Shown here piece by piece: positions 353 through 32,761 of a stretch of 64,000 nucleotides of DNA (positions are counted from its first letter, which is position 1; every line of letters starts with the position of its first letter). The notes below the pieces were generated by a model. That model saw only the letters and a list, made by a program, of their open reading frames with translations. It made no database searches and had not been told where the DNA came from. The stretch is taken from NCBI GenBank assembly GCA_000092065.1, contig CP000597.1. One strand, given 5' to 3'. Source of the DNA: Ostreococcus lucimarinus (taxonomy: Eukaryota). The position numbers and the translations under genes are program-made.

Positions 353-890
353 ATGGACGAGTCAACAGCACGCGCGGAACGTTTACGAGCGATGCGCGAG
401 GCCGCGTCGAGCGCGAACGCCGACGCACAGGCGAATGCGAACGCACCTTCGAGTACGCTTCCAGCGCCCTTCGTCGACCTCGGGGACGGCGACGATCGTA
501 CGCCGGGGTTTTACACAGGTGCCGGAGCGTCGAGTATGGATATGAGTGATATTCCTGCGGAATCCACGCGTGCGCCACGCGCTCCACCACCTCCACCACC
601 TCCGCCGCGTTGGCTAGGGGAACAGAATCAGCGCTTCGGCGGCGGCGGAGGTCGAGGCGGGGGCGGACGAGGCGGCGGACGAGGCGGCGGGCGAGGCGGG
701 GGATCCCGAGGGCACAAAGCCGCACGTACGGGCGATTATCGCTCTGAAAACACATTCAATCCAGCGAATTATTACAAGGTACGTGCCTCGCGCCAATTTG
801 CTGTACGCGTGCGCGACTGACGCTCGTTCGTTTCCTCTGGCGCAGCCAACGATGTGCGTCGATCCTTGGCTCACCCTCGAGCGCACCTGA
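353..890 (+). CDS. RGG-box (Gly/Arg-rich) nucleic-acid-binding protein with a poly-Pro tract. Predicted two exons (353-778 and 846-890) joined across a 67-nt intron. The spliced C-terminus reads ...NPANYYK/PTMCVDPWLTLERT.
   Basis: ORF track 248..820 begins with GTG; the first in-frame ATG is at 353 (MDESTARAERL...). The product carries a PPPPPPPP tract and (GGGR)n RGG repeats. Exon 1 ends AAG|GTACGTG at 778/779; CTGAC branch at ~816-820; pyrimidine tract; CAG at 843-845. Exon 2 is in phase to a TGA at 888-890. Domain family not identified. Confidence 0.45.
779..845 (+). other. Predicted spliceosomal intron (67 nt, GT..AG) in the RGG-box protein gene
   Basis: 5' splice site AAG|GTACGTG is a near-perfect consensus. 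CTGAC branch point sits ~24 nt upstream of CAG. The stop codon of the unspliced ORF (TGA 818-820) lies inside the branch-point motif. Phase-0 splice continues the frame for 14 codons. Confidence 0.45.
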
Positions 891-1045
891 TCGCGTTCAT
901 GATCGATTCTATTGATTGTTTCTAGCTCATTCCTTAGCCATTAATAGCTCGCGTGTAAGACTCAATAGCTGAGTGTGCTTTGTCCAACCGCCGACGCCGA
1001 GAGCGTCAGACGTCGGTGCGCGGCGGTCACCGACTTGAAGTCCCG

Positions 1046-2182
1046 ATGAGCGTCGACGGTGACGACGAGCCCGTGATAGATATGAATGACGCCATGCATC
1101 GCGCCGTGGCGCTCAAGGCCGAGCGATTGCGACGCACGCGAGCGTCGTACGAGGCCGCACCGGTGTTCGTTCGGGACACGCTCGCGACGGATCGAGACGA
1201 AAACTACGTCGAATTGCGAAAGAAACCGCTGGCGGCACGCTTGACGTTTGCCAACAAACTTCTCGATGATGCCAAAGCGTTGGTGCGAGAGGAAGCCCAC
1301 GAGGACGCGCTGGAGGCGTACACAGACGCCTTGGCGGCGTTTTGTCACTTTGAGCGACCGAGCGGGACAGAGAGCACAGAGACGTTGACGTACGTAGATT
1401 ATCTCGAAGACGACGAACGTCAAAGCGAAGGCGTAGAAATGGTGAAACGAATCATGCTTAACGCATCGGCGTGCTTGATGAACATCGATCTGAGGAAGCA
1501 TGCGAAGGCGGTAGAATGGGCGACGACGCGAGCGTTGCGCGCTGACGCCGCGTGCGCCGCCGCATACTACAGAAGAGGACGAGCCAGGACCATGATGACG
1601 GAAGAAGGGACTGTAGAGCAGGCGTTGGATGATTTTAAACGCGCCGTGGATCTCGATCCGGGCGAGAAGCGGTATGTGCGAGCGTTAGCGGAGCACAGTA
1701 GAGAAGTTATGAAGACGACTGAGGTGCAACGAGCCGTCTTCGGAAAGATGTTTTCCGGCGCAAGCGCTATCTACGCCGACGACAAGGCGACAACCGTCGC
1801 AAAATCCACTGTCGACGAGGAGGTCGAACGCGTGCTTCTAGACGAAAGCTTGCTCGTGAAGGCTCAGGAGATGGGTTTCAATGTCGACGCCGACGATTTC
1901 CGTCGAGAACTCGCTTCCCGAGTCCGCGACGAAGTGCACGACAGTCGACGCGAGCGGGCGAAAGAGCTCGGTTTAAATCTTGATGATGATGATGTCAAGC
2001 GCGCGATCGAGTATTTCGAGCGCTCGCGTCGCGGTGGTGATTCGGATGCGAGCTCACGAACTTTTGCGCGCTTCGTTGCTCGCGCTCTCATCGTCCTCGT
2101 CGTCGCTCGCGTCGTGTACGTCGTCCACAAGATTGCGACGAGCCCTATCGATTCCCTCGATGTGCGCGGGGTGATGGATTGA
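1046..2182 (+). CDS. TPR-repeat protein with a C-terminal transmembrane tail anchor
   Basis: ORF 980..2182 starts with TTG; first ATG at 1046. TPR-like helical repeats (…LEAYTDALAAFCHF…, …AAYYRRGRARTMMTEEGTVEQALDDFKRAVDLDPGE…). C-terminal hydrophobic stretch ARALIVLVVARVVYVVHKIA lies next to the stop, the topology of tail-anchored TPR co-chaperone receptors. Confidence 0.55.
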   Translation: MSVDGDDEPVIDMNDAMHRAVALKAERLRRTRASYEAAPVFVRDTLATDRDENYVELRKKPLAARLTFANKLLDDAKALVREEAHEDALEAYTDALAAFCHFERPSGTESTETLTYVDYLEDDERQSEGVEMVKRIMLNASACLMNIDLRKHAKAVEWATTRALRADAACAAAYYRRGRARTMMTEEGTVEQALDDFKRAVDLDPGEKRYVRALAEHSREVMKTTEVQRAVFGKMFSGASAIYADDKATTVAKSTVDEEVERVLLDESLLVKAQEMGFNVDADDFRRELASRVRDEVHDSRRERAKELGLNLDDDDVKRAIEYFERSRRGGDSDASSRTFARFVARALIVLVVARVVYVVHKIATSPIDSLDVRGVMD

Positions 2183-2302
2183 TTCCGCAGAACACGACTA
2201 GAAATTTTAGTTATTTAGTTTTAGTTGCCGCGCTCGCGAGCGCTCCGGCGCTCCTCCGCGCCTCACTCCTCGGCGCCGCACCGGGAGTCCTCGCCGTGTT
2301 CG

Positions 2303-3031
2303 ATGTCGCTCGCCTCGTGCGCCGCGAGCTCGAACGGCGCGAACCGCGACGCGAAGCGCGATCGCGATCGAGCGCGTCCGCGTCGATCGAACAAGGTCAA
2401 GACCAGACGCGTGTCCCAACACACCGACGTGGCGTTCGTGGAACCGACGCTTTCGAAGCCGCTTTCGAGGCCCGCGCCGTCGTGCGACGCGGCGTCGCTC
2501 CCGGGATTGATCGTGTACGATTTGGACGACACGATATGGTTCCCCGAGCTGTACATGATCGCCGGCGCACCGTTCGTCAAGACGTCAAAGTCCACCGTCG
2601 TGGACAGCGGGGGCGCGCGCTTGGGCTGTTATCCAGCGGCGCTCGCTTCCGTGGCGCTCGCGAAGTCGTGCGGTGCGTTTCGCGAGCGAGGCACGCTGAT
2701 CGCCGTCGCTTCGCGAACGCACAGGGGTAAATGGGCGCGCGAGCTCATGGATGCGTTCGAAGTGCGCGACGGCGACGACGACGCTCGCACGCTCGCCGCG
2801 TGCGTCGATTTCGTCGACATCGCCAGCGGTTCCAAGACGAAACATTTCGCGCGTTTACGCGAAAAATCCGGCGTTCCCTACGCCGAAATGTTATTCTTCG
2901 ATAACGAGCGCGAGAACATCGACGAGGTCGCTCGTCTCGGCGTCGCTTGCGTGCACTGTCCCGGCGGCTTGTCCGCGGACGCCTGGCGGCGCGGCTTGAC
3001 TTTCTTCGTCGACGACGTCGTCGATCCGTAG
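2303..3031 (+). CDS. MDP1: Magnesium-dependent phosphatase 1 (MDP-1 family, HAD superfamily)
   Basis: Motif LPGLIVYDLDDTIWFPELY (HAD motif I, DxDxT) and downstream FFDNERENIDEV..GV (motif III/IV) match the MDP-1 family. First in-frame ATG at 2303; the N-terminal ~65 aa extension may be a targeting sequence. Confidence 0.7.
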   Translation: MSLASCAASSNGANRDAKRDRDRARPRRSNKVKTRRVSQHTDVAFVEPTLSKPLSRPAPSCDAASLPGLIVYDLDDTIWFPELYMIAGAPFVKTSKSTVVDSGGARLGCYPAALASVALAKSCGAFRERGTLIAVASRTHRGKWARELMDAFEVRDGDDDARTLAACVDFVDIASGSKTKHFARLREKSGVPYAEMLFFDNERENIDEVARLGVACVHCPGGLSADAWRRGLTFFVDDVVDP

Positions 3032-3210
3032 CGCCGCGCGCGTCCAGGGCTCGTTTATTGTATCACTGCGTAATATAATCTTTATCGTCACAGTTCCACG
3101 CGCGAGCGACGACCGATCGAGCGAGGACGACTCGGCGAACTCCGGGACGCCGCGCGGCGGGCGCGAATGAGCCGCGGCCGTTTGTCGATTCCACACACGT
3201 CGTCGTCGTC

Positions 3211-24344: not shown

Positions 24345-24621
24345 CGCGCGACGTCACGAATCCCCGTGCGTCGCTCGAACGACGCGCTCTTCGCGCGTCG
24401 GCGTCGACGAATCGACGACGGCGCGAATCGAATCGCGCGCGGTGCGCGTGAATGAATCGACGCGAATCGACGCGAATCGCGCGCGCGCGCCGTCGCGACG
24501 CCGCGCTTATGTCGCGCGCTCGACCGACCGCCGCGCGCTCGCGTCGCGCGTCGTCGCGCGATTCGCGCGTCGTCGCGCGCGCGCGAGTCGCGCCGTCGCG
24601 CGCGCGGTCGCGCGGTGTGGT

Positions 24622-24700
24622 CTCCTTTTACCATTTCTACGCCTTACTATACGATATATACAACGCATCATGCGTACACGATCCACCATCACGACATGGA
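24622..24700. promoter_or_regulatory. AT-rich island with TATA-like element (ACGATATATAC, TATATA ~24655-24660) in the divergent region between the RAP-repeat gene (minus, ATG 24344) and the ACT-domain gene (plus)
   Basis: Sharp local drop in GC (…ccatttctacgccttactatacgatatatacaacgcatcatg…) inside otherwise >70% GC sequence. Positioned between two divergently oriented gene starts. Confidence 0.35.
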
Positions 24701-25060
24701 TCACGCGTGTCATCGTACACGTCACACTGTGTGTCCACACCCGTATGTCCGAATTCTCCACCGACGACGCGTCGCGTCGAATCCATCGCTCGGTCGGCAC
24801 GGGGCGACGCGCGCGACAATCGCGATGCGAGCGATGCGGTGCGTTCGAGCGCGATTCGCGCCGATTCGCGACGCGAGCGATTCCGCGCGGCGTCCACGGG
24901 AACGCCGACCGTCGCGCGACGACCGCGCGTCGATCGCGATGACGCGGTCGCGGTGCCGACCGCGCGATGGATTCGAGGCGACGCCGACGGTCGGCGACGA
25001 CGCGACGACGTCGACGCGTCGCGCCGAGGACGCGATTCGAAGAGTCGACGTCTCGCGCGT

Positions 25061-26065
25061 ATGCCGTATGCGCGCGCGGACGGCGCGACGCGCGCACGCG
25101 GAGACGCGCGACGGAGGATCCGTCGCGCGCGCGAGGGGCGCGCGGACGCGCGCGAGACGACGAGGGGCGGCGCGGAGAAGAAGAATAAAACGCCGACGAG
25201 CGACGCGGGTCGAGGACGAAAGAGACCGAACGGGGAAGGGGGAAGAGTGAGACTCGCGCGCGATGACGAAGAGATCGGACGAGGCGATGACGGTGAGACT
25301 GACGAGCGACGCGAACGCGAACGGGCGCGCAGGGCGACGAGGACGGCGACGGCGAACGCGGCGGCGACGGCGCGCGGACGCGCGCGACGAACGACGAAGA
25401 CGCGCGCGGGCGGCGCGTCGGTGGGAACGGAGAAACCGGTGCCGATCGTGATCATAGATAACAAGAGCGATGCGTTCGCCACGGTGGTGGAGGTGTCGTT
25501 CGGAAACTACCTCGGCGAGCTGCTCGACACCGTCGCGGCGCTGAAAAACCTCGGCTTGGACATCAACAAGGGGGACGTGCAAATGTCCGGGGATTCGACG
25601 AAGACGTCGAAATTTTACGTGATCGATCGCGAAAACGGTGAGAAGGTGACCAAGAGCGAGCGCTTGGAGGAGATTCGTCAGACAATCTTGACCAACATGA
25701 TGGCGTTTCACCCGGAAGCCGCCGAGTACATTCAAGCCAAGGCGCCGACGCGCGCGGGGGGCGAGGGGGTCTTGGGTAAGGTGAAGAAGAAGGTGCAAAC
25801 CGGCATCAAGTGCGCCCCGGAGCGGTACCACTCCAAGCTCGAGATCGAAACCACCGATCGACCGGGGTTGTTGGTGGACGTCGTGCGCACGCTCAAGGAT
25901 TTGAGCCTGTGCGTCGTGAGCGCCGAGGTGGACACCATCGGAGATAAGGCGAGCGACATCATCTACGTCACCCATAAAGGTGGGCCGTTGTCGCCGCCGA
26001 TGGAACAACTCGTGGTGAACTCTCTGTCTTACTACTTGTCTCTGACCGAGGAGGAAAGTTACTAA
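25061..26065 (+). CDS. ACT-domain repeat protein (ACR-like regulatory protein); ACT region confident, start codon uncertain
   Basis: Two ACT-type modules (…PIVIIDNKSDAFATVVEVSFGNYLGELLDTVAALKNLGLDI… and …SKLEIETTDRPGLLVDVVRTLKDLSLCVVSAEVDT…). The frame is open back to an ATG at 24452, but a TATA-like AT island at ~24655 lies inside that stretch. I therefore place the start at the next in-frame ATG (25061). Confidence 0.6.
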   Translation: MPYARADGATRARGDARRRIRRAREGRADARETTRGGAEKKNKTPTSDAGRGRKRPNGEGGRVRLARDDEEIGRGDDGETDERRERERARRATRTATANAAATARGRARRTTKTRAGGASVGTEKPVPIVIIDNKSDAFATVVEVSFGNYLGELLDTVAALKNLGLDINKGDVQMSGDSTKTSKFYVIDRENGEKVTKSERLEEIRQTILTNMMAFHPEAAEYIQAKAPTRAGGEGVLGKVKKKVQTGIKCAPERYHSKLEIETTDRPGLLVDVVRTLKDLSLCVVSAEVDTIGDKASDIIYVTHKGGPLSPPMEQLVVNSLSYYLSLTEEESY

Positions 26066-26266
26066 ACGGTTCTGAGAATCTTACGCGTTGACGCGGGTCT
26101 CGACGACGCCGCGAGGGGTGCGTTCGCGAAGCGGCGCTGTAGTCTCGAACAAACTCCAACAAAATGAAATGCTTACTGATCATACCTAACAACACGAACA
26201 TCGCGCTTAATTCGACGACTAGAGGAAATTTTATCAAAACGCTCGGTTCGGGGCGCGCTAAACGCG

Positions 26267-28222
26267 TCAGACGCACGGACAAATGTTTGTGCAGTCGGCG
26301 TGCGCCGCGGCGTACGTGCACGACGCCGGGAGATGGCCGTGAGACGGGCTCAAGAAGCACCGTCCAGAAAGCGCGGAAACGCCACCGCAGTGCTGTGTCT
26401 CGTCGTTGAGCAAGATTTCGTCGCACGCCACGATGTTTCCAGAGCCGTCTGCGCTCGTCGTCCTGGAGATGACGTCGCGGAAATCATTCATAGTGCTCGG
26501 CCACACGTGTTCGGCGCACGTCTTCTGAACCTCGGCGCATCGGGATTCGCACGTTTGCAACGATCCAAACTTGGTTTGAGTCCACTCGATACCGTTCGCC
26601 GTGAGGCGTTGATCGGCCGGGATCGCCTCGACCGGGCCAGATTCTTCCATGGCGCCCATGCCGGCGGCGGCAAACCGGTTAGGATCGACGTTCGCCTTCG
26701 GCGGTTGCGGCGGTTGTTCCACTAGCACCGGCTGTTCCATCAACACCGGTTGCTCCACTTGCGCCGGTTGCTCCACTTGCTCGCCGTAATGATCGTTGTC
26801 GTATTCGCGATCTTGGTATTCGTCCGTCGCCTGCACCACCGGCGCCGTGGACTCCAACGTCGGCTGCGTTTCCACGGGCGGCATCACCGGTGCCGTGGAC
26901 GACGCTTCTACCGGGTTCATCGGAACTTCGGGTAAACCGCCTTGTTCGCACCCGGTGACACCGTAATGGTCGCACACGCACTGAGTGCACGTTTCCCATC
27001 CGTCTTCGTAGCTGATGGATGGATCTTGGTGATCCGTCTTGCAAAATCGACAAGCGCTGTCAGCGTAGCAACCTTGGCCGCCCTCGGTCAGGCATCGCTT
27101 ATCGTACATCAAGTACAAAATCTTGCTATCGCACGTGTTATAGTTGCACGTGAGACCTAAAGCGGCGGAAGCAGTGGACGACGCCGTCAAGAAGCTCGAC
27201 GCCAGTCCTTCGTCTGTCACCTCCGCCACCTGCGGCTCGCTCGAGAATTGTTGCGCAGGCGCCGCTTGCGGTATGTCTGAGAATTCATCATACGCTTGCG
27301 CGGCTTGCACCGGCGCCGCTTGCACCACGGTTGAGGATTGCTCGAGCGTCGGCGTGGCTTGCACCGGCGCCGTCGTTGGCGTGGCTTGCACCGGCGCCGT
27401 CGTCGGCGTGGATTCCAAACCTTCCGGCGTCGGCATCCCCGCGCATCCAGTGCTGAAACCATAATGCTCGCACACGCACGGGTCACAAAGACCCATAGAG
27501 TCCGGAATATCGTTCATACCGCCTTGTTTTTCCATCCCGAGCACGCGGCAGAACCGGCACCCGCTGTCGCCCACGCAACCGATGCCCCCGTTCGCGCACG
27601 CCGGATCGACGTGCTGGAACTTATCTGGACACATGGCCGCGTCGCACGTCGCGCCTTCGGCGATCAACGCCGCGGCACCGTCGACGCCTGAACCCGCGAT
27701 GGGCGTCGAGACGATGCCTGAGCCGACGGCCGCCGCGCCGCTCGCCGCCGCGCCGCTCGCCGCCGCGCCGCTCGAGAAACCGATCGACGAAGACTTAAAA
27801 TTCTCCGCCTCATCCTTGAAAAACTGCGGCACGTCGCCGAGCGCACCGCTGTCCACGTCGTGCGTTCTCGACACCCTCCTCGATCGCTCGGATTCGCTCG
27901 CCGTGTTCCACGCTTCGCCCTCCAACAGCGGATTCGACGCCCCGAGCTCCGTCAGCGCCCCGTCGCGTCTCGCCCCGCCCAACCGCGCCACCGTCTCCTT
28001 CGCTCGGTACCGCCGCGTCAGATCATCGCGAGTTTTCTCATCCAAATCCAACACCGTTCCCTCGTACGCCGCTCCCTCGACCCGTCGCACGCTTCGCTTC
28101 CCCAGCGCCGCGTTCGCGTTCGCGTTCGCGTTCGCCGTCGTCTCCCGCCCCCCCATCGCCGCCATCATCGCCATCATCCCCAGCGACGCCATCGCCGCGC
28201 TCGCCATCGTCCGTCGGTTCAT
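26267..28222 (-). CDS. Secreted cysteine-rich protein with two copies of an unrecognised 10-Cys module plus a third Cys-rich C-terminal region and short proline-rich tandem repeats
   Basis: ATG at 28222 gives MNRRTMASAAMASLGMMAMMAAMGG, plausible as a signal peptide. Module 1: CDAAMCPDKFQHVDPACANGGIGCVGDSGCRFCRV...CDPCVCEHYGFSTGC. Module 2: CNYNTCDSKILYLMYDKRCLTEGGQGCYADSACRFCKT...CTQCVCDHYGVTGC. Cys spacing is identical (C-x4-C-x10-12-C-x6-C-x5-CRFC-x17-20-C-x2-CxC-x7-8-C). Linkers are (APVQATPTT)n and (VEQP)n. Confidence 0.6.
   Translation of the reverse strand: MNRRTMASAAMASLGMMAMMAAMGGRETTANANANANAALGKRSVRRVEGAAYEGTVLDLDEKTRDDLTRRYRAKETVARLGGARRDGALTELGASNPLLEGEAWNTASESERSRRVSRTHDVDSGALGDVPQFFKDEAENFKSSSIGFSSGAAASGAAASGAAAVGSGIVSTPIAGSGVDGAAALIAEGATCDAAMCPDKFQHVDPACANGGIGCVGDSGCRFCRVLGMEKQGGMNDIPDSMGLCDPCVCEHYGFSTGCAGMPTPEGLESTPTTAPVQATPTTAPVQATPTLEQSSTVVQAAPVQAAQAYDEFSDIPQAAPAQQFSSEPQVAEVTDEGLASSFLTASSTASAALGLTCNYNTCDSKILYLMYDKRCLTEGGQGCYADSACRFCKTDHQDPSISYEDGWETCTQCVCDHYGVTGCEQGGLPEVPMNPVEASSTAPVMPPVETQPTLESTAPVVQATDEYQDREYDNDHYGEQVEQPAQVEQPVLMEQPVLVEQPPQPPKANVDPNRFAAAGMGAMEESGPVEAIPADQRLTANGIEWTQTKFGSLQTCESRCAEVQKTCAEHVWPSTMNDFRDVISRTTSADGSGNIVACDEILLNDETQHCGGVSALSGRCFLSPSHGHLPASCTYAAAHADCTNICPCV
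26725..26778 (-). repeat. 18-bp tandem repeat x3 encoding (VEQPxL/VEQPPQ) linker repeats in the Cys-rich secreted protein
   Basis: caccggctgttccatcaa / caccggttgctccacttg / cgccggttgctccacttg read directly. Confidence 0.8.
27354..27407 (-). repeat. 27-bp tandem duplication encoding (TAPVQATPT) repeats in the Cys-rich secreted protein
   Basis: gtggcttgcaccggcgccgtcgttggc / gtggcttgcaccggcgccgtcgtcggc, one mismatch. Confidence 0.85.
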
Positions 28223-29253
28223 CCGCAGTCCCTCCCCCGCGCCCTCGCTCGCGCCTCGCGCGTCTCGCGCGTCGTCGTCGTCGCTCTCGCGTCGTCGTCG
28301 CGCGTCCCGATCGTCGTCGCGTCGGCCCAGCAGCGACGCCGATTCCGACGCCCGCGCCGCATCGCGCGATCGCGCGTCGTCCGGTGCGCGCATGCTCGGC
28401 GCGCGCGTCGTCGTCGTCCGCGCCGTCGCGCGTCGTCGAGCGTCGCGCGATGCGAGACGGTACCACAACTTTAGTGTTGGCGAAACCACGAAATCCCGTC
28501 CCGCGCGCGTCACCGAACCCGATCGGCGTCGCCCGCCGTGTCTCTGGTATACGGGTACACGCACCGTTCTCATATGAACGCCGAGGTACTATAATACCTC
28601 TAATAACGCTCTATGAAAGGTGCGAGCGGGACGCCCGACCGACCCCTCGTGCGTGTCCGAATGTCCGATCGTCCCCGAATGTCCGAATATCCGAATAATC
28701 CCATCCGTATGCGCGAGCAGTCCGACGCGAAGACCGACCCAAGCGCGGCATCCATCCATCGATGCCCCACTCTTCGACGGCGATTCGCGACGCCGGTCGA
28801 CCCGTGGACGCCGCAGACGCCGACGGACGCCGCCGAGCGCGAAGAGCGGACGGTGTGCGACGCGAACACAACGCGACGACGCGACGACGCGAATCCGGAC
28901 GCGCGACGACGAGGACGCGCTCGAGCGCGCGCGAACGCTGACTGGACGCCGCGTCGGCGCGGCGCGCGACGAAGCGAACGCGCGATGGGGCTCGAGACGG
29001 CGCTGCTGAGGAACCACGAGCGGTTGGGGAAGATCGCGCTCACGGGAGGGTTCGCGTTCGGGTTCGCGTACACGACGAAGACGGGGACGAGTCCGCTCGC
29101 GGGATGGGGATGGACGCCGCGGACGCGCGAGGCGAGCGCGCGCGCGGCGACGGCGAACGATTGATGATTGTTGTTGTTGTAAAAAGAATGGGTTTGTACG
29201 CACGACGATGGCGCGCGGTGATCGACGCGCGCGGTTTGACTAGGGCTAAGATG

Positions 29254-29292
29254 AACGAACGAACGAACGAACGAACGAATGAATGAATGAAC
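29254..29292. repeat. (GAAC)6(GAAT)3 compound microsatellite in the intergenic region between the Cys-rich protein gene and the permease gene
   Basis: gaacgaacgaacgaacgaacgaacgaatgaatgaatgaacg read directly. Confidence 0.9.
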
Positions 29293-29362
29293 GCGTCGGG
29301 GCGCGCCGGCGCCCTCGGCGGCGCGACGCGCGAGGAGAAATATTTCGACGTCTCGGACGCGC

Positions 29363-32300
29363 TCACGTCGACGCCGCGGTCGCGATCGCACCGCCGAGCT
29401 CGACGTCGGCGGTGGGTTCGATATCGGAACCGCGACGACGGTGGCGCGCGGCACGGGACCGAGCGGCGCGGTCGACGACGGCGGTCCACGCCGCGCGGAA
29501 CCCCACCGTGGTGGCGACGACGACGACGACGAAGGCGACGACGATGACGACGTACGGGATCCATATCGCGTCGTCGCCGACGCCTAAGACGACGATACTG
29601 ACGATCAAGAGCGTGATCTGCATGGGGAAACCAAATTTGATAAAGTCGGCGAACACGTAGCCGCCCGGGCCGTACACCATGAGGTTGGTTTGGTATCCGA
29701 AGGGCGACATGAAGGACGCCGAGGCGGCGAGCATGAGTAAGAAGGCCATCTTTTCGAGCGCGATGTTTTCAGATTCCGCGGCGCTGGCGGCGATGGGAAG
29801 CATCAAAGCCGCGGCGGCGTTGTTCGTCACGATGTTGGAGATCAAGAACGTGGCGAGGTAGACGGCGACGAGCAAGCCGATTTCACCCGTGTTCGTGACG
29901 CGACCCAACGCGACGAGTTTCTTCGCCACGGCTTCGGCGACGCCACTGTTTTGCATGGCGCGCGAAATTCCAAAAGCACCGGCGATGGTGACTATGACGT
30001 CCCATTTTATGGCGTTTCGAGCCTCTTGCTGCGTCAGAGTGCCAGAGGCGATCATCACAGCCGCCGCGAGCACCGCGGCGGTGAAGAGCTCCATGACGCC
30101 GGCGGTGTACAAACTAATCATTGCCAGCGCGCACAAGAGCGAGGGGATGAGTAATCGCAAACGAGGGGGCGTAGAATCGTCCAAAACACTGATCAGAGCG
30201 AACGCGCCCTGCGCCCGGGCGCTTTGTTTGAAATCTTCACCGGCGTCGAGTAAAAGCACGTCGCCGGGGTGCAAGACGACGTCGCCAATTCTTGAGTGCA
30301 CGCGCGCGCCCTCGCGATGGACGGCGATGACGACTGCGTTGAATCGCGTGCGAAATTTGATGTCTCGAATAGACTTACCGACCAAATCTCCAGTTTTCGC
30401 GACCACGGCTTGAATCAATCGACGGTCGTGACTGGAGATTTCGAGCTTGTCCACTTGGTCGCTCGAGTACGGCGCCAGCCCCGGAACCCGACGAAGACTG
30501 GCGATGGCGTTGGCGCCACCGGCGTACCACATCACGTCATTTGCTTCTAAAGGCTCACTCGGATCGATCACAGTGGTTCTGTCCGCGGGAGATTCAACCA
30601 TGGCGACGACAGCCGCTGCGCCGACGCTCACGATGGATCGCGTGCGCTCGATTGATACCAAAAACAAACCCGGCAACGACCGCAAGCCGCTCTCGACCGC
30701 CGTCTTGCCTATGAAATTCTTCGCCGTAGCTTCAATGCGCACGGCGATGAGGAACTCTTTCCCTGTGTTCATCGTTCCCGATCCATGACCGATGATTTCT
30801 AAATCCTCGCGAGTCTTCGCCAAGCGCTCGTCCTCCTCAACGACGACGTCTTCAGATTCCTCCAAGAGCTTGATCAAAGGTGAACTATCCTGCGCCTGTA
30901 ATACGAGAGTATCACCCACTTGAAAAATCAGCGCGTTTAGCTTACCCGGTGGCGCGCGACCGCCACGTTGCACAGCGATGATGGCGCCGCCGTACGTGAC
31001 GCGCAAATCCGCCTCTCCTGGAGTCTTTCCCACGAGCGATGACGTCGGTTTCACACTGCATCGAACGACGGATTGCCCGCGCCTTTTCACGGCTTCAATC
31101 CCAGTCACGGGTTCGAGTAAAGTTTTGATCACCGTCGTGATCTCCTCTTTCGTCGTGGTGTTTTGCAACACTTGCAAGCGCCAAATAGAAACCGATCGCG
31201 AACCCACCGCCGAAGCTTCGCAATGTAACAACTGCACACGCAAGCGATTCAACGCCTGCGAGATGTCGTGCAACAACCCGGGTCGATCGTTCGCACTAAT
31301 TCCGAGCACCATACGTCCAACGTGTTCGGGGTTATTTTGATCGGCATCGGGATCGACATCCACGGTCACCAACGGCGGCCCCAGGGCGGTTTCGCTCTCC
31401 TTGGCGCTAATCATCGCGTCACCGTCGCCGCGAGCTTCACCGAGAGCATTCTTCAGATTTTCGCCGTACATCCGCAACGCCTGAGCTTTGATCGCTCGTG
31501 CGGTGCCGTCGTCAGAATCACTGGCGCCACCAGAAGTATACGCGTTGCCGTCGGAGGATGAATACCCCGGGCTCAGCGGGAGCGCGCTCCCAGCGTCGCT
31601 CGAGTCTTGGTTCGATCCGTGCGATCTGCGAGGTCGAGCCTTTTGTCGACGCTTCCGCAAGGCATAAATTCCACCTTCCGATTCTTTGTAAATGGCGTGC
31701 GTGCGCGCGAGCTTTTGTAAATCCGCAATGCTGCTCGCCGAGTGCATGGCGACGACGTCCTTCTCGTCACCTCCGTCAAACGACGTCTCTCTCGCGCCTT
31801 CGTCTTCGTCTTCGTCGTACTCTTGCGTGATCGCCATCAACCCATACTCCGCGCACACCTTCCCGAGCGACTCGATCATCCCGGTAAAATACAAAATATC
31901 GCCCTGGTTCAGGATGAACTCTGGTCCGATGGCGCGCAACAACGCTTGGTTTCTGCGCACGCTCACCAGGTACAATCCCGGCAAACCTCGCAATCCGCTC
32001 GCGGCGACCGTGTGCCCGACCGCGGGCGACCACCCCTCGACGCGCGCACCGACGAGTAAATCCTCTTCGTCCTCTCCGCGCCGTTGATCCCTCGGTCCGC
32101 TTCCGATTCGCCGCGCGCCTTTTGGCAACAAAAACGGCGACGCCAGCAACACGTACGCTATCCCCGCCAACGCCACGGGCACGCCGTACAGCCCGAGATC
32201 AAACAGACCGATCTTCACCTCCCCCCCTCGCCCCGCGTGCTCGCGCGTCCACGTCTCCACCATTCCCTGCACCACTAAATTCGTCGACGTTCCGATGAGC

Positions 32301-32761
32301 GTGCACGTGCCGCCGAGCACGCTCGCGAACGACAACGGAATCATCAACTGCTCCTTCGCCATTCCCGTGGCCTCGGCCCATCGCAGCACGATCGGTATCA
32401 TCACCGCCACCACGGGCGTGTTATTCAAAAATCCACTCACGCACGCGATCGGCAGCATCAATCGCAACTGCGCCCCCGCCGGGGTTCGCGGCTTCCCCAG
32501 CACCTTCCCCATGTACCAGTCCAGCCCCCCCGTCGCGCTGATCCCCGCCGCGACGACGAACAGCGCGCCGACCGTGAGCAATCCCTCGTTCGCGAACCCG
32601 GCGAGGGATTCGGCGAGCGTGATGACGCCGCACAGGTTGAGCGTCGCGACGGCGAGCATCATCGTCCAGTCCGCGGCGACGTAGTCTCGCAGGAGCGCGA
32701 CGAACGCGAGCGCGACGACGACGACGGTGACGGCGGCGTGGAAGTCCGCGGTGGCGCCCAT
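29363..32761 (-). CDS. CitMHS/ArsB-NhaD-superfamily anion permease with internal TrkA-C (RCK_C) domains and an ACT-like insert (YfbS/YbiR-like architecture)
   Basis: ATG at 32761. N- and C-terminal multi-helix permease halves (…LPIACVSGFLNNTPVVAVMIPIV…, …LISNIVTNNAAAALMLPIA…). Central paired TrkA-C-like modules (…GLRGLPGLYLVSVRRNQALL…GDILYFTG…, …GLRSLPGLFLVSIERT…). Additional ACT-like segment MVLGISANDRPGLLHDISQALNRLRVQLL. Confidence 0.75.
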   Translation of the reverse strand: MGATADFHAAVTVVVVALAFVALLRDYVAADWTMMLAVATLNLCGVITLAESLAGFANEGLLTVGALFVVAAGISATGGLDWYMGKVLGKPRTPAGAQLRLMLPIACVSGFLNNTPVVAVMIPIVLRWAEATGMAKEQLMIPLSFASVLGGTCTLIGTSTNLVVQGMVETWTREHAGRGGEVKIGLFDLGLYGVPVALAGIAYVLLASPFLLPKGARRIGSGPRDQRRGEDEEDLLVGARVEGWSPAVGHTVAASGLRGLPGLYLVSVRRNQALLRAIGPEFILNQGDILYFTGMIESLGKVCAEYGLMAITQEYDEDEDEGARETSFDGGDEKDVVAMHSASSIADLQKLARTHAIYKESEGGIYALRKRRQKARPRRSHGSNQDSSDAGSALPLSPGYSSSDGNAYTSGGASDSDDGTARAIKAQALRMYGENLKNALGEARGDGDAMISAKESETALGPPLVTVDVDPDADQNNPEHVGRMVLGISANDRPGLLHDISQALNRLRVQLLHCEASAVGSRSVSIWRLQVLQNTTTKEEITTVIKTLLEPVTGIEAVKRRGQSVVRCSVKPTSSLVGKTPGEADLRVTYGGAIIAVQRGGRAPPGKLNALIFQVGDTLVLQAQDSSPLIKLLEESEDVVVEEDERLAKTREDLEIIGHGSGTMNTGKEFLIAVRIEATAKNFIGKTAVESGLRSLPGLFLVSIERTRSIVSVGAAAVVAMVESPADRTTVIDPSEPLEANDVMWYAGGANAIASLRRVPGLAPYSSDQVDKLEISSHDRRLIQAVVAKTGDLVGKSIRDIKFRTRFNAVVIAVHREGARVHSRIGDVVLHPGDVLLLDAGEDFKQSARAQGAFALISVLDDSTPPRLRLLIPSLLCALAMISLYTAGVMELFTAAVLAAAVMIASGTLTQQEARNAIKWDVIVTIAGAFGISRAMQNSGVAEAVAKKLVALGRVTNTGEIGLLVAVYLATFLISNIVTNNAAAALMLPIAASAAESENIALEKMAFLLMLAASASFMSPFGYQTNLMVYGPGGYVFADFIKFGFPMQITLLIVSIVVLGVGDDAIWIPYVVIVVAFVVVVVATTVGFRAAWTAVVDRAARSRAARHRRRGSDIEPTADVELGGAIATAAST

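What the first reader, a model, noticed from the sequence alone, without database searches (positions are those of the whole stretch)
26267..28222. Secreted protein built from a repeated, apparently undescribed 10-cysteine module (C-x4-C-x10-12-C-x6-C-x5-CRFC-x17-20-C-x2-CVC-[ED]HYG-x3-GC)
Two ~70-aa modules share identical cysteine spacing and a conserved CRFC…CVC(E/D)HYGxxGC core. A third divergent Cys-rich region ends the protein (…GRCFLSP…CTNICPCV). The modules are joined by short proline-rich tandem repeats ((TAPVQATPT)n, (VEQP)n) that are visible as 27-bp and 18-bp DNA tandem repeats. I cannot match the module to EGF, TNFR, laminin-EGF, VWC or other common Cys-rich folds from memory. With an N-terminal signal-peptide-like segment, this looks like an extracellular or cell-wall adhesion/scaffold protein. 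It may be a lineage-specific domain.
Basis: seen in the sequence. Interest (0 to 1): 0.55.

Follow-up and report, generated by a model that had tools for sequence, protein, structure and literature searches.

The report
Membrane protein with new cysteine-rich module
The repeated 10-cysteine module is real and belongs to an uncatalogued extracellular domain family also found in oomycetes and other protists, and the protein carrying it is more likely a membrane-anchored protein with a conserved sorting signal than a freely secreted one.

Summary
One minus-strand ORF encodes two homologous 10-Cys modules (39% identity, E 2e-12), Pro/Thr/Gln-rich linkers encoded by 27-bp and 18-bp tandem repeats, and a Cys-rich C-terminus.

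- The module is not lineage-specific. An exhaustive profile search found 161 representative proteins, including oomycete surface proteins with up to 12 copies of a 6-Cys core version. It also sits between the catalytic domain and the membrane anchor in GH81 and G8/CEMIP enzymes.
- The C-terminal domain is unrelated to the module.
- Translation most likely starts at ATG 28393, not 28222. That puts about 60 residues, including a conserved acidic dileucine motif (ESASLL), before the hydrophobic segment. This motif occurs in 24 of 37 similar relatives (1.5 expected), and flank charges indicate an N-in orientation in 30 of 32. The layout is a type II membrane protein rather than a cleaved signal peptide.

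Function is inferred only. The best reading is an adaptor-sorted surface or endomembrane glycoprotein whose modules act as stalk or binding beads. This is a moderately interesting new domain family.

The parts
26267..28393 (-). Most likely CDS: 708 aa plus stop, single exon
   Evidence: The ORF is open from 28573. Metagenome gene models of the near-identical protein P0001 start at this ATG. The upstream tail is conserved.
28211..28393 (-). Arg/Asp-rich N-terminal tail (aa 1-61), inferred cytosolic
   Evidence: All orthologues have a charged tail before the hydrophobic segment. A strain variant carries an in-frame 1-codon indel here (P0021). The N-flank is more positive than the C-flank in 30 of 32 family members.
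28328..28345 (-). Acidic dileucine motif ESASLL (aa 17-22), matching [DE]xxxL[LI]
   Evidence: The motif occurs in the tail of 24 of 37 type-II-like family members against 1.5 expected from shuffles. In relative L003 the block SESASLLGRRDDD differs only by 2 synonymous changes while the flanks diverge.
28220..28222 (-).
   Evidence: It aligns to GTG in relative L003, so it is not a conserved start codon.
28148..28210 (-). Met/Ala-rich hydrophobic segment TMASAAMASLGMMAMMAAMGG (aa 62-82), inferred signal anchor
   Evidence: Its Kyte-Doolittle mean is 1.44 over 19 aa, which is weak. The equivalent segments in homologues score 1.9-2.7.
27647..28147 (-). Conserved juxtamembrane region (aa 83-249), including the AALG motif (aa 95-98), the (AN)4 repeat at 28109-28135 and the (SGAAA)3 repeat at 27728-27772
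   Evidence: Alignment A1. [AS]LG lies within 40 aa after the hydrophobic segment in 18 of 33 members against 2.5 expected. TRF results.
27443..27646 (-). Cys module 1 (aa 250-317, 10 Cys)
   Evidence: Regex and HMM matches; alignment A2.
27149..27442 (-). Linker 1 (aa 318-415), rich in Ala/Thr/Pro/Ser/Gln, containing the 27-bp tandem repeat at 27347-27411
   Evidence: Linker length and sequence are not conserved among orthologues.
26948..27148 (-). Cys module 2 (aa 416-482, 10 Cys); this copy was modelled
   Evidence: The AF2 model has pLDDT 83 and pTM 0.69.
26693..26947 (-). Linker 2 (aa 483-567), rich in Pro/Glu/Gln/Val, containing the 18-bp tandem repeat at 26711-26777
26270..26692 (-). 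C-terminal 10-Cys domain (aa 568-708), the best conserved part and unrelated to the module
   Evidence: 62-73% identity to close orthologues and 33-40% to distant ones. It occurs only in this orthologue group. hhalign against the module finds no similarity. No Pfam match. The AF2 model is poor, pLDDT 44.

Best explanation
The gene encodes a 708-aa single-pass type II (N-terminus inside) membrane glycoprotein of a GC-rich marine picoeukaryote, probably a green picoalga.

Cytosolic side: an Arg/Asp-rich tail of about 60 residues carries a conserved acidic dileucine motif (ESASLL). In animals, yeast and plants this motif class is read by clathrin adaptor (AP) complexes. The protein is therefore probably sorted or cycled between Golgi, plasma membrane and endosome or vacuole.

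Other side of the membrane:
- a conserved juxtamembrane region;
- two copies of a disulfide-locked 10-Cys module;
- flexible, fast-evolving Pro/Thr/Gln/Ala-rich spacers, probably O-glycosylated and extended;
- a distinct, more conserved 10-Cys C-terminal 'head' domain.

The module belongs to an uncurated extracellular domain family. It has a 6-Cys core (C1, C3, C4, C5, C6, C7) that gains C9+C10 and then C2+C8 as pairs. In every architecture seen, the module lies between a membrane anchor and a distal functional domain, or forms bead-on-string arrays. This points to a rigid stalk or binding bead at the cell surface.

Shown here: module homology, its distribution, its lack of known relatives, motif conservation and flank-charge asymmetry. 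Inferred: topology, AP binding, disulfides, glycosylation and function.
For: Module and family:
- Module homology and conservation.
- 161 representatives at E<=1e-3 and 59 at E<=1e-10 in an exhaustive HMMER search.
- Named sources are oomycetes and Chromosphaera.
- No Pfam hit.
- The confident AF2 model has no PDB neighbour and nothing in BFVD.
- Cys occupancy classes are 6, 8 and 10 Cys, with pairwise gains.
- The modules lie C-terminal to GH81 (P0111) and to G8/CEMIP beta-helix domains (P0083, P0085, P0120, P0126, P0175). In P0111, P0120 and P0083 they lie N-terminal to a C-terminal TM segment.

Topology and start codon:
- [DE]xxxL[LI] is found in 24 of 37 tails against 1.5 expected.
- The N-flank is more positive than the C-flank in 30 of 32.
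- ATG 28222 is GTG in relative L003, while ESASLLGRRDDD is kept with only synonymous changes.
- Gene models start at 28393.
- A minimal orthologue, P0088 (266 aa), keeps exactly tail motif, TM, one module and C-terminal domain.
Against: - The window's hydrophobic segment is weak (KD 1.44). Preceded by MNRR, it would also pass as a signal peptide.
- No dedicated signal-peptide or TM predictor was available.
- 13 of 37 relatives lack the motif, although some are truncated gene models.
- No transcript or protein data define the start.
- L003 has frameshifts, so its tail is not in one frame with the body.
- AP binding, disulfides and glycosylation are untested.
- The function of the module and of the C-terminal domain rests only on domain position.
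Confidence: 0.55

Rival explanations
1. Translation starts at ATG 28222 (or at the next ATG, MASAAM...). The hydrophobic segment is a cleaved signal peptide, and the protein is a soluble secreted or wall/matrix adhesion or scaffold glycoprotein.
For: - MNRR followed by a weakly hydrophobic Met/Ala stretch (KD 1.44) resembles the n- and h-regions of a signal peptide.
- Some gene models start there (P0011, P0078).
- 52 other module-bearing proteins, mostly oomycete-type, do have a hydrophobic segment at the very N-terminus.
Against: - ATG 28222 is GTG in L003.
- The upstream ESASLLGRRDDD is conserved with only synonymous changes.
- ExxxLL upstream of an internal hydrophobic segment is a family-wide feature: 24 of 37 against 1.5 expected.
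- The orthologues' hydrophobic segments are TM-strength (1.9-2.7) and lie 36-128 residues from the N-terminus.
Confidence: 0.2
2. A hybrid reading. The protein is made as a type II precursor, sorted through the dileucine tail, and then cleaved at the conserved lumenal [AS]-L-G site 10-25 residues beyond the membrane. This releases the ectodomain into a vacuole or lumen, or to the outside.
For: - [AS]LG lies within 40 aa after the hydrophobic segment in 18 of 33 members against 2.5 expected.
- Small residues at -3 and -1 resemble a peptidase site (own knowledge).
Against: - There is no evidence of cleavage.
- The motif is further from the hydrophobic core than typical signal-peptidase sites.
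- The motif could equally be structural.
Confidence: 0.12
3. The module is a variant of a known Cys-rich domain. Candidates are the TNFR cysteine-rich domain (UniProt auto-names the oomycete homologue K3W7B6 'TNFR-Cys domain-containing'), EGF or laminin-EGF, or a known Cys-rich carbohydrate-binding module (hevein/CBM18, X8/CBM43, WSC, CBM1).
For: - The automatic UniRef name of P0063.
- Small size, even Cys number and an extracellular mosaic context.
Against: - No Pfam family, including those for these domains, hits the window protein at E<=10. P0063 has 0 families at E<=1. None of these families appears among the weak hits of 100 modules.
- The PROSITE TNFR pattern, written from memory, matches none of the proteins.
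Confidence: 0.04
4. The cysteines bind metal (a zinc-ribbon-like or treble-clef intracellular module) rather than forming disulfides.
For: - The module has CxxC-type pairs (CRFC, CxxCxC).
- The weakest-noise hits are to zinc-binding proteins: uS14 at E 0.08 and zinc-finger Pfam families at E 0.009-0.09 in 1-2 of 100 modules.
Against: - The hits are not significant.
- The modules follow signal peptides or signal anchors and sit among mucin-like linkers in oomycete proteins that also have C-terminal TM segments.
- Cys are gained in pairs, 6 to 8 to 10.
- There is no conserved His outside a subset.
Confidence: 0.03

Closest known systems
Type II endocytic lectin receptors of animals (DC-SIGN/CD209, asialoglycoprotein receptor, CD23); compared from own knowledge
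   Same: The overall layout matches: an N-terminal cytosolic tail with a dileucine-type sorting motif, a single signal anchor, a repeat-containing stalk and a C-terminal disulfide-rich head domain.
   Different: There is no sequence or profile similarity. The C-terminal domain gave no Lectin_C or other Pfam hit and could not be modelled. The stalk here is built of Cys modules plus Pro-rich spacers, not coiled-coil neck repeats. This is a resemblance in design only, not membership.
Acidic dileucine [DE]xxxL[LI] sorting signals read by AP-1/2/3 adaptors, including plant tonoplast proteins (own knowledge)
   Same: The motif sequence (ESASLL) fits, it sits in a charged N-terminal tail on the inferred cytosolic side, and it is strongly conserved across the family.
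   Different: Binding to adaptors and any effect on localisation are untested. The distance to the membrane (about 40 aa here, 17-106 in relatives) is larger than in many characterised signals.
TNFR cysteine-rich domain (the automatic UniProt label of oomycete homologue K3W7B6)
   Same: Both are small extracellular repeats, and the oomycete version has six Cys.
   Different: The Cys spacing differs. There is no Pfam hit, no pattern match and no structural match to the PDB.
Small Cys-rich carbohydrate-binding modules appended to glycoside hydrolases (CBM1, CBM18/hevein, CBM43/X8, WSC)
   Same: The module is found in multiple copies C-terminal to GH81 and G8/CEMIP catalytic domains.
   Different: There is no sequence or fold similarity to any of them. 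No conserved aromatic platform is obvious. The modules sit between the catalytic domain and a membrane anchor, which fits a stalk role equally well.
Mucin-like and hydroxyproline-rich glycoprotein stalks of algal and oomycete surface proteins (own knowledge)
   Same: The linkers are Pro/Thr/Ser/Ala/Gln-rich, tandemly repeated, and vary in length and sequence between orthologues and strains.
   Different: Glycosylation was not tested. The window protein has no N-x-S/T sequon at all.

Membership tests
New Cys-module family defined here by profiles A2/A5 | Core D-x2-C-x2-4-GG-x-GC-x4-6-C-[RQ]-[FY]-C, with flanking C1 and C7 | tested here: met
   Both window modules match the profile end to end (E 1e-26 and 3e-31 per domain). 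C3, C4, C5, C6 and C7 are invariant in 100 modules.
TNFR cysteine-rich domain | Match to Pfam TNFR_c6 or to the PROSITE TNFR Cys pattern | tested here: not met
   No Pfam hit. The pattern, written from memory, matches neither the window protein nor P0058, P0060, P0063 or P0067.
TNFR / EGF / laminin-EGF / hevein / X8 / WSC / PAN folds | Structural similarity of the module to a solved member | tested here: not met
Type II signal-anchor membrane protein | Hydrophobic segment internal to the protein (not at the N-terminus), with no other TM segment | tested here: inconclusive
   This is met if translation starts at 28393 (segment at aa 62-82), which conservation supports. However, the start codon is not experimentally defined and the segment is weakly hydrophobic (KD 1.44).
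Type II signal-anchor membrane protein | Positive-inside charge asymmetry (N-flank more positive than C-flank) | tested here: met
   The window scores +1 against 0. Across the family, 30 of 32 have the N-flank more positive than the C-flank.
Type II signal-anchor membrane protein | The anchor is not cleaved and the protein stays membrane-bound | not testable with these tools
   This needs fractionation or N-terminal sequencing. The conserved [AS]LG motif leaves cleavage open.
Acidic dileucine sorting signal | [DE]xxxL[LI] in a cytosolic segment, conserved among relatives | tested here: met
   ESASLL lies at aa 17-22. The motif is found in 24 of 37 relatives against 1.5 expected, and is conserved in L003 with only synonymous changes.
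Acidic dileucine sorting signal | Binds AP adaptor hemicomplexes and directs localisation | not testable with these tools
   This requires yeast three-hybrid or pull-down assays and LL->AA localisation experiments.
Carbohydrate-binding module | Binds a glycan; usually appended to carbohydrate-active enzymes | tested here: inconclusive
   Appended to GH81 and G8/CEMIP domains in six proteins. Binding was not tested, and most family members have no enzyme domain.
C-type lectin-like domain (for the C-terminal domain) | Match to Lectin_C or the CTLD fold | tested here: not met
   No Pfam hit at E<=10 in 10 members. The PDB profile search gave only noise. The AF2 model was too poor to compare (pLDDT 44), so the fold remains open.

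The most novel reading that the evidence does not exclude
The module is a new fold of glycan- or matrix-binding module (in effect a new CBM-like family) shared by green picoalgae, oomycetes, ichthyosporeans and other protists. The picoalgal protein would then be an adaptor-sorted, lectin-like cell-surface or endocytic receptor. Such an exposed, fast-evolving surface molecule could matter for cell-cell, particle or virus recognition in wall-less picoplankton.
Probability: 0.18. Interest if true: 0.7.

Novelty: new variant of a known kind. Interest (0 to 1): 0.5.

Why it matters
- It defines a widespread but uncurated extracellular domain family. The family has a confident predicted structure, no solved neighbour and a clear 6/8/10-Cys evolutionary series. 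That is useful for annotating hundreds of 'hypothetical' surface proteins in oomycete pathogens and marine protists.
- It reveals a conserved chassis in abundant marine picoeukaryotes: ExxxLL tail, signal anchor, [AS]LG motif, then Cys modules. Very few membrane-trafficking cargoes are known in these organisms.
- The repeated placement of the module next to GH81 and CEMIP-like enzymes gives a testable lead on its function.

Tried and rejected
- Pfam scans of the whole protein, 100 individual modules, 10 C-terminal domains and 15 relatives gave nothing for the module or the C-terminal domain.
- PDB sequence-profile searches with the module and the C-terminal domain gave only noise, E>=0.08.
- AF2 on the C-terminal domain with 10 sequences gave pLDDT 44, which is unusable.
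- The Foldseek AFDB50 library was not available. BFVD gave nothing.
- hhalign of the C-terminal domain against the module rejects the 'third divergent copy' idea.
- The word-indexed search with the broad module profile returned only 2 proteins, so it added no taxonomy.
The organism therefore remains inferred.
- An IMG/VR scan for viral copies of the module found none.
- Literature searches for the CRFC motif, oomycete Cys-rich repeats, and Ostreococcus with dileucine found nothing relevant.
- A six-frame scan of the window found no second module-bearing gene.
- Rfam found nothing in the window.
Full report
**1. What is in the sequence**

On the minus strand an ORF is open from 28573 to the stop at 26267-26269. 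A pattern search places the two modules at window 27443-27646 and 26948-27148.

The modules are 39% identical over 74 residues, with a pairwise BLASTP E of 2e-12, and all ten cysteines align. The written pattern needs two small corrections. C3-C4 spacing is x6 in module 1 and x7 in module 2. The spacer after HYG is x3 in module 1 and x2 in module 2.

Tandem Repeats Finder confirms the 27-bp repeat (27347-27411, 2.4 copies, 94% match, TTAPVQATP units). It also confirms the 18-bp repeat (26711-26777, 3.7 copies, hexapeptides ending in EQP).

All 30 cysteines of the protein fall in three blocks of ten: module 1, module 2 and the C-terminal domain. None lies elsewhere.

**2. The protein family and the true N-terminus**

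A search of 5.8 billion proteins found only ten clusters of full-length relatives. All are unnamed sequences from marine metagenomes, including Tara, and none has a Pfam domain.

The alignment shows one architecture:
- a charged N-terminal tail;
- a hydrophobic segment;
- a conserved juxtamembrane region;
- one or two Cys modules separated by non-conserved low-complexity linkers;
- a strongly conserved C-terminal Cys domain.

Gene models of the near-identical protein P0001 start at the upstream ATG 28393, giving 708 aa. Several results favour that start:
- In the same relative, the upstream block SESASLLGRRDDD is kept with only two nucleotide changes, both synonymous, while the flanks diverge with indels.
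- A strain variant carries an in-frame one-codon indel in the tail.
- ExxxLL is present in the tails of the distant orthologues: ESIALL, ENARLL, EGAPLL, EDSPLL.

One caveat applies. L003 carries frameshifts, also inside the clearly coding body, so it cannot by itself show a continuous frame.

**3. A conserved chassis**

Among module-bearing proteins, 37 have a first hydrophobic segment that starts at residue 20 or later and precedes the modules. Of these, 24 carry [DE]xxxL[LI] in the preceding tail, against 1.5 expected from shuffled tails. The motif usually lies within the first 3-17 residues.

The 15-residue N-flank of the hydrophobic segment is more positive than the C-flank in 30 of 32 cases. 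By the charge-difference rule (established knowledge) this predicts an N-in, type II orientation.

A second short motif, [AS]-L-G, lies 10-25 residues beyond the hydrophobic segment in 18 of 33 cases, against 2.5 expected. Its role is unexplained and it might be a processing site.

The window's own hydrophobic segment (MASAAMASLGMMAMMAAMG) is weak, with a Kyte-Doolittle mean of 1.44, whereas homologues reach 1.9-2.7. A cleaved signal peptide from a downstream start therefore cannot be excluded.

**4. The module is not lineage-specific**

An exhaustive HMMER search of 1.84 billion representatives with the 11-module profile found 161 proteins at E<=1e-3 and 59 at E<=1e-10. They fall into three groups.

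- Full-length modules in type-II-like proteins. This includes the orthologue group and a second family with two 8-Cys modules and the same ExxxLL/TM chassis (P0094, P0097, P0131, P0135, P0137, P0148, P0166).
- A 6-Cys core version in 5-12 tandem copies, separated by Thr/Pro-rich linkers, in oomycete proteins. Examples are RLN74495.1 of Nothophytophthora, K3W7B6 of Globisporangium ultimum and a G. polare protein. Many of these have an N-terminal signal-like segment, and several have a C-terminal TM segment.
- Copies C-terminal to catalytic domains. These follow G8/CEMIP beta-helix domains (P0083, P0085 of Chromosphaera perkinsii, P0120, P0126, P0175) and a GH81 glucanase (P0111). In P0083, P0111 and P0120 the modules sit between the catalytic domain and a C-terminal membrane anchor.

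Cys occupancy over 100 aligned modules falls into nested classes:
- 39 modules with C1, C3, C4, C5, C6 and C7;
- 22 that add C9 and C10;
- 24 that also add C2 and C8.

This pattern implies C9-C10 and C2-C8 disulfides on a three-disulfide core.

**5. Comparison with what is known**

Pfam (2025) has no match at E<=10 for the window protein. It has none at E<=1 or 1e-3 for the module regions of 15 relatives. No family recurs when 100 modules are scanned singly. PDB sequence profiles give only noise.

The UniProt auto-name 'TNFR-Cys domain-containing' for K3W7B6 is not borne out. There is no TNFR Pfam hit, no match to the PROSITE pattern as I recall it, and no structural match.

No viral copies were found in IMG/VR. 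Literature searches found no description of the module.

**6. The C-terminal domain**

This is the best-conserved part: 62-73% identity to close orthologues and 33-40% to distant ones. It is restricted to the orthologue group.

Profile-profile comparison shows no similarity to the module, so it is not a divergent third copy. It has no Pfam or PDB sequence match. With ten sequences its AF2 model was unusable, at pLDDT 44.

The minimal orthologue P0088 (266 aa) retains only the tail motif, the TM segment, one module and this domain. That marks these four elements as the functional core.

**7. Most likely mechanism**

Shown here:
- a conserved extracytoplasmic Cys module family;
- a conserved ExxxLL tail;
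- charge asymmetry around the hydrophobic segment;
- variable repeat linkers;
- a conserved distal domain.

Inferred:
- The protein inserts as a type II membrane protein.
- Its tail motif is read by AP adaptor complexes, as [DE]xxxL[LI] signals are in animals, yeast and plants (established knowledge). This would sort or cycle the protein between Golgi, surface and endosome or vacuole.
- The ectodomain is an extended, probably O-glycosylated stalk. Disulfide-locked modules act as rigid or binding beads, presenting the C-terminal head.

In every architecture the module lies between a membrane anchor and a distal functional domain, or forms bead arrays. This fits a stalk role or a surface-matrix-binding role. 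Its attachment to GH81 and CEMIP-like enzymes makes glycan binding a reasonable but untested possibility.

**8. Rivals**

- A type II precursor shed at the [AS]LG site is a hybrid possibility.
- Membership in TNFR, EGF or known CBM folds is disfavoured by the tests above.
- A metal-binding role for the cysteines is likewise disfavoured.

**9. Verdict**

The 'undescribed module' claim is supported, within the limits of Pfam 2025 and the PDB. 'Lineage-specific', 'third divergent copy' and 'N-terminal signal peptide' are not supported.

This is a new variant of a known kind of thing, namely small disulfide-rich extracellular modules in mosaic surface proteins. Interest is moderate, at 0.5.

A marine green picoalga is inferred from three things: GC content of 51-71% per 2 kb, the single-exon gene, and homologues known only from marine metagenomes.

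Noticed in passing
window 28100-28111 (AALG, aa 95-98 of the 708-aa protein); same position in relatives: A short lumenal motif [AS]-L-G lies 10-25 residues after the hydrophobic segment in 18 of 33 family members, against 2.5 expected from shuffles. It may be a processing site, but its role is unexplained.
   Followed up: partly
P0111, P0083, P0085, P0120, P0126, P0175 (relatives, not in the window): The module occurs in 1-6 copies C-terminal to GH81 and G8/CEMIP beta-helix catalytic domains. In P0083, P0111 and P0120 it lies between the enzyme and a C-terminal membrane anchor.
   Followed up: partly
P0094, P0097, P0131, P0135, P0137, P0148, P0166 (relatives): There is a second family of type-II-like proteins with the same ExxxLL tail and TM chassis. 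It has two 8-Cys modules and highly charged Asp/Glu/His/Lys-rich C-termini, and lacks the C-terminal domain of the window protein.
   Followed up: partly
window 28109-28135 and 27729-27774: The (AN)4 microsatellite differs from the near-identical metagenomic protein P0001 (ARANANANA against ANANANANA). A perfect 15-bp x3.1 repeat encodes (SGAAA)3. Linker repeat numbers also vary among orthologue variants (P0005, P0006 and P0009 have 739, 719 and 769 aa).
   Followed up: no
window 26267-28393 (protein): The 708-aa protein has no N-x-S/T sequon at all, and no cysteine outside the three 10-Cys blocks.
   Followed up: no
window 29363-32761 (-) and about 25247-26065 (+): The neighbouring genes are a 1132-aa CitMHS transporter with TrkA_C domains upstream and a 272-aa ACT-repeat (ACR-like) protein downstream. 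The same neighbours flank the gene on metagenomic contigs L001, L002 and L003.
   Followed up: no
window 24452-29660, both strands: Many long overlapping ORFs lie on the opposite strand and in other frames (for example 27582-28577 +, 331 aa). They are Arg/Ala/Ser-rich, as expected for high-GC sequence, and are most likely spurious.
   Followed up: no
L003 (ENA ERZ10646527 contig_17519) 827-3085: The orthologous gene on this contig is split into three overlapping ORFs by frameshifts. These are probably assembly indel errors, so the contig should not be used as evidence for or against frame continuity.
   Followed up: partly
window 1-64000: GC content per 2 kb swings between 0.51 and 0.71. No Rfam family reaches its gathering score anywhere in the window.
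   Followed up: no
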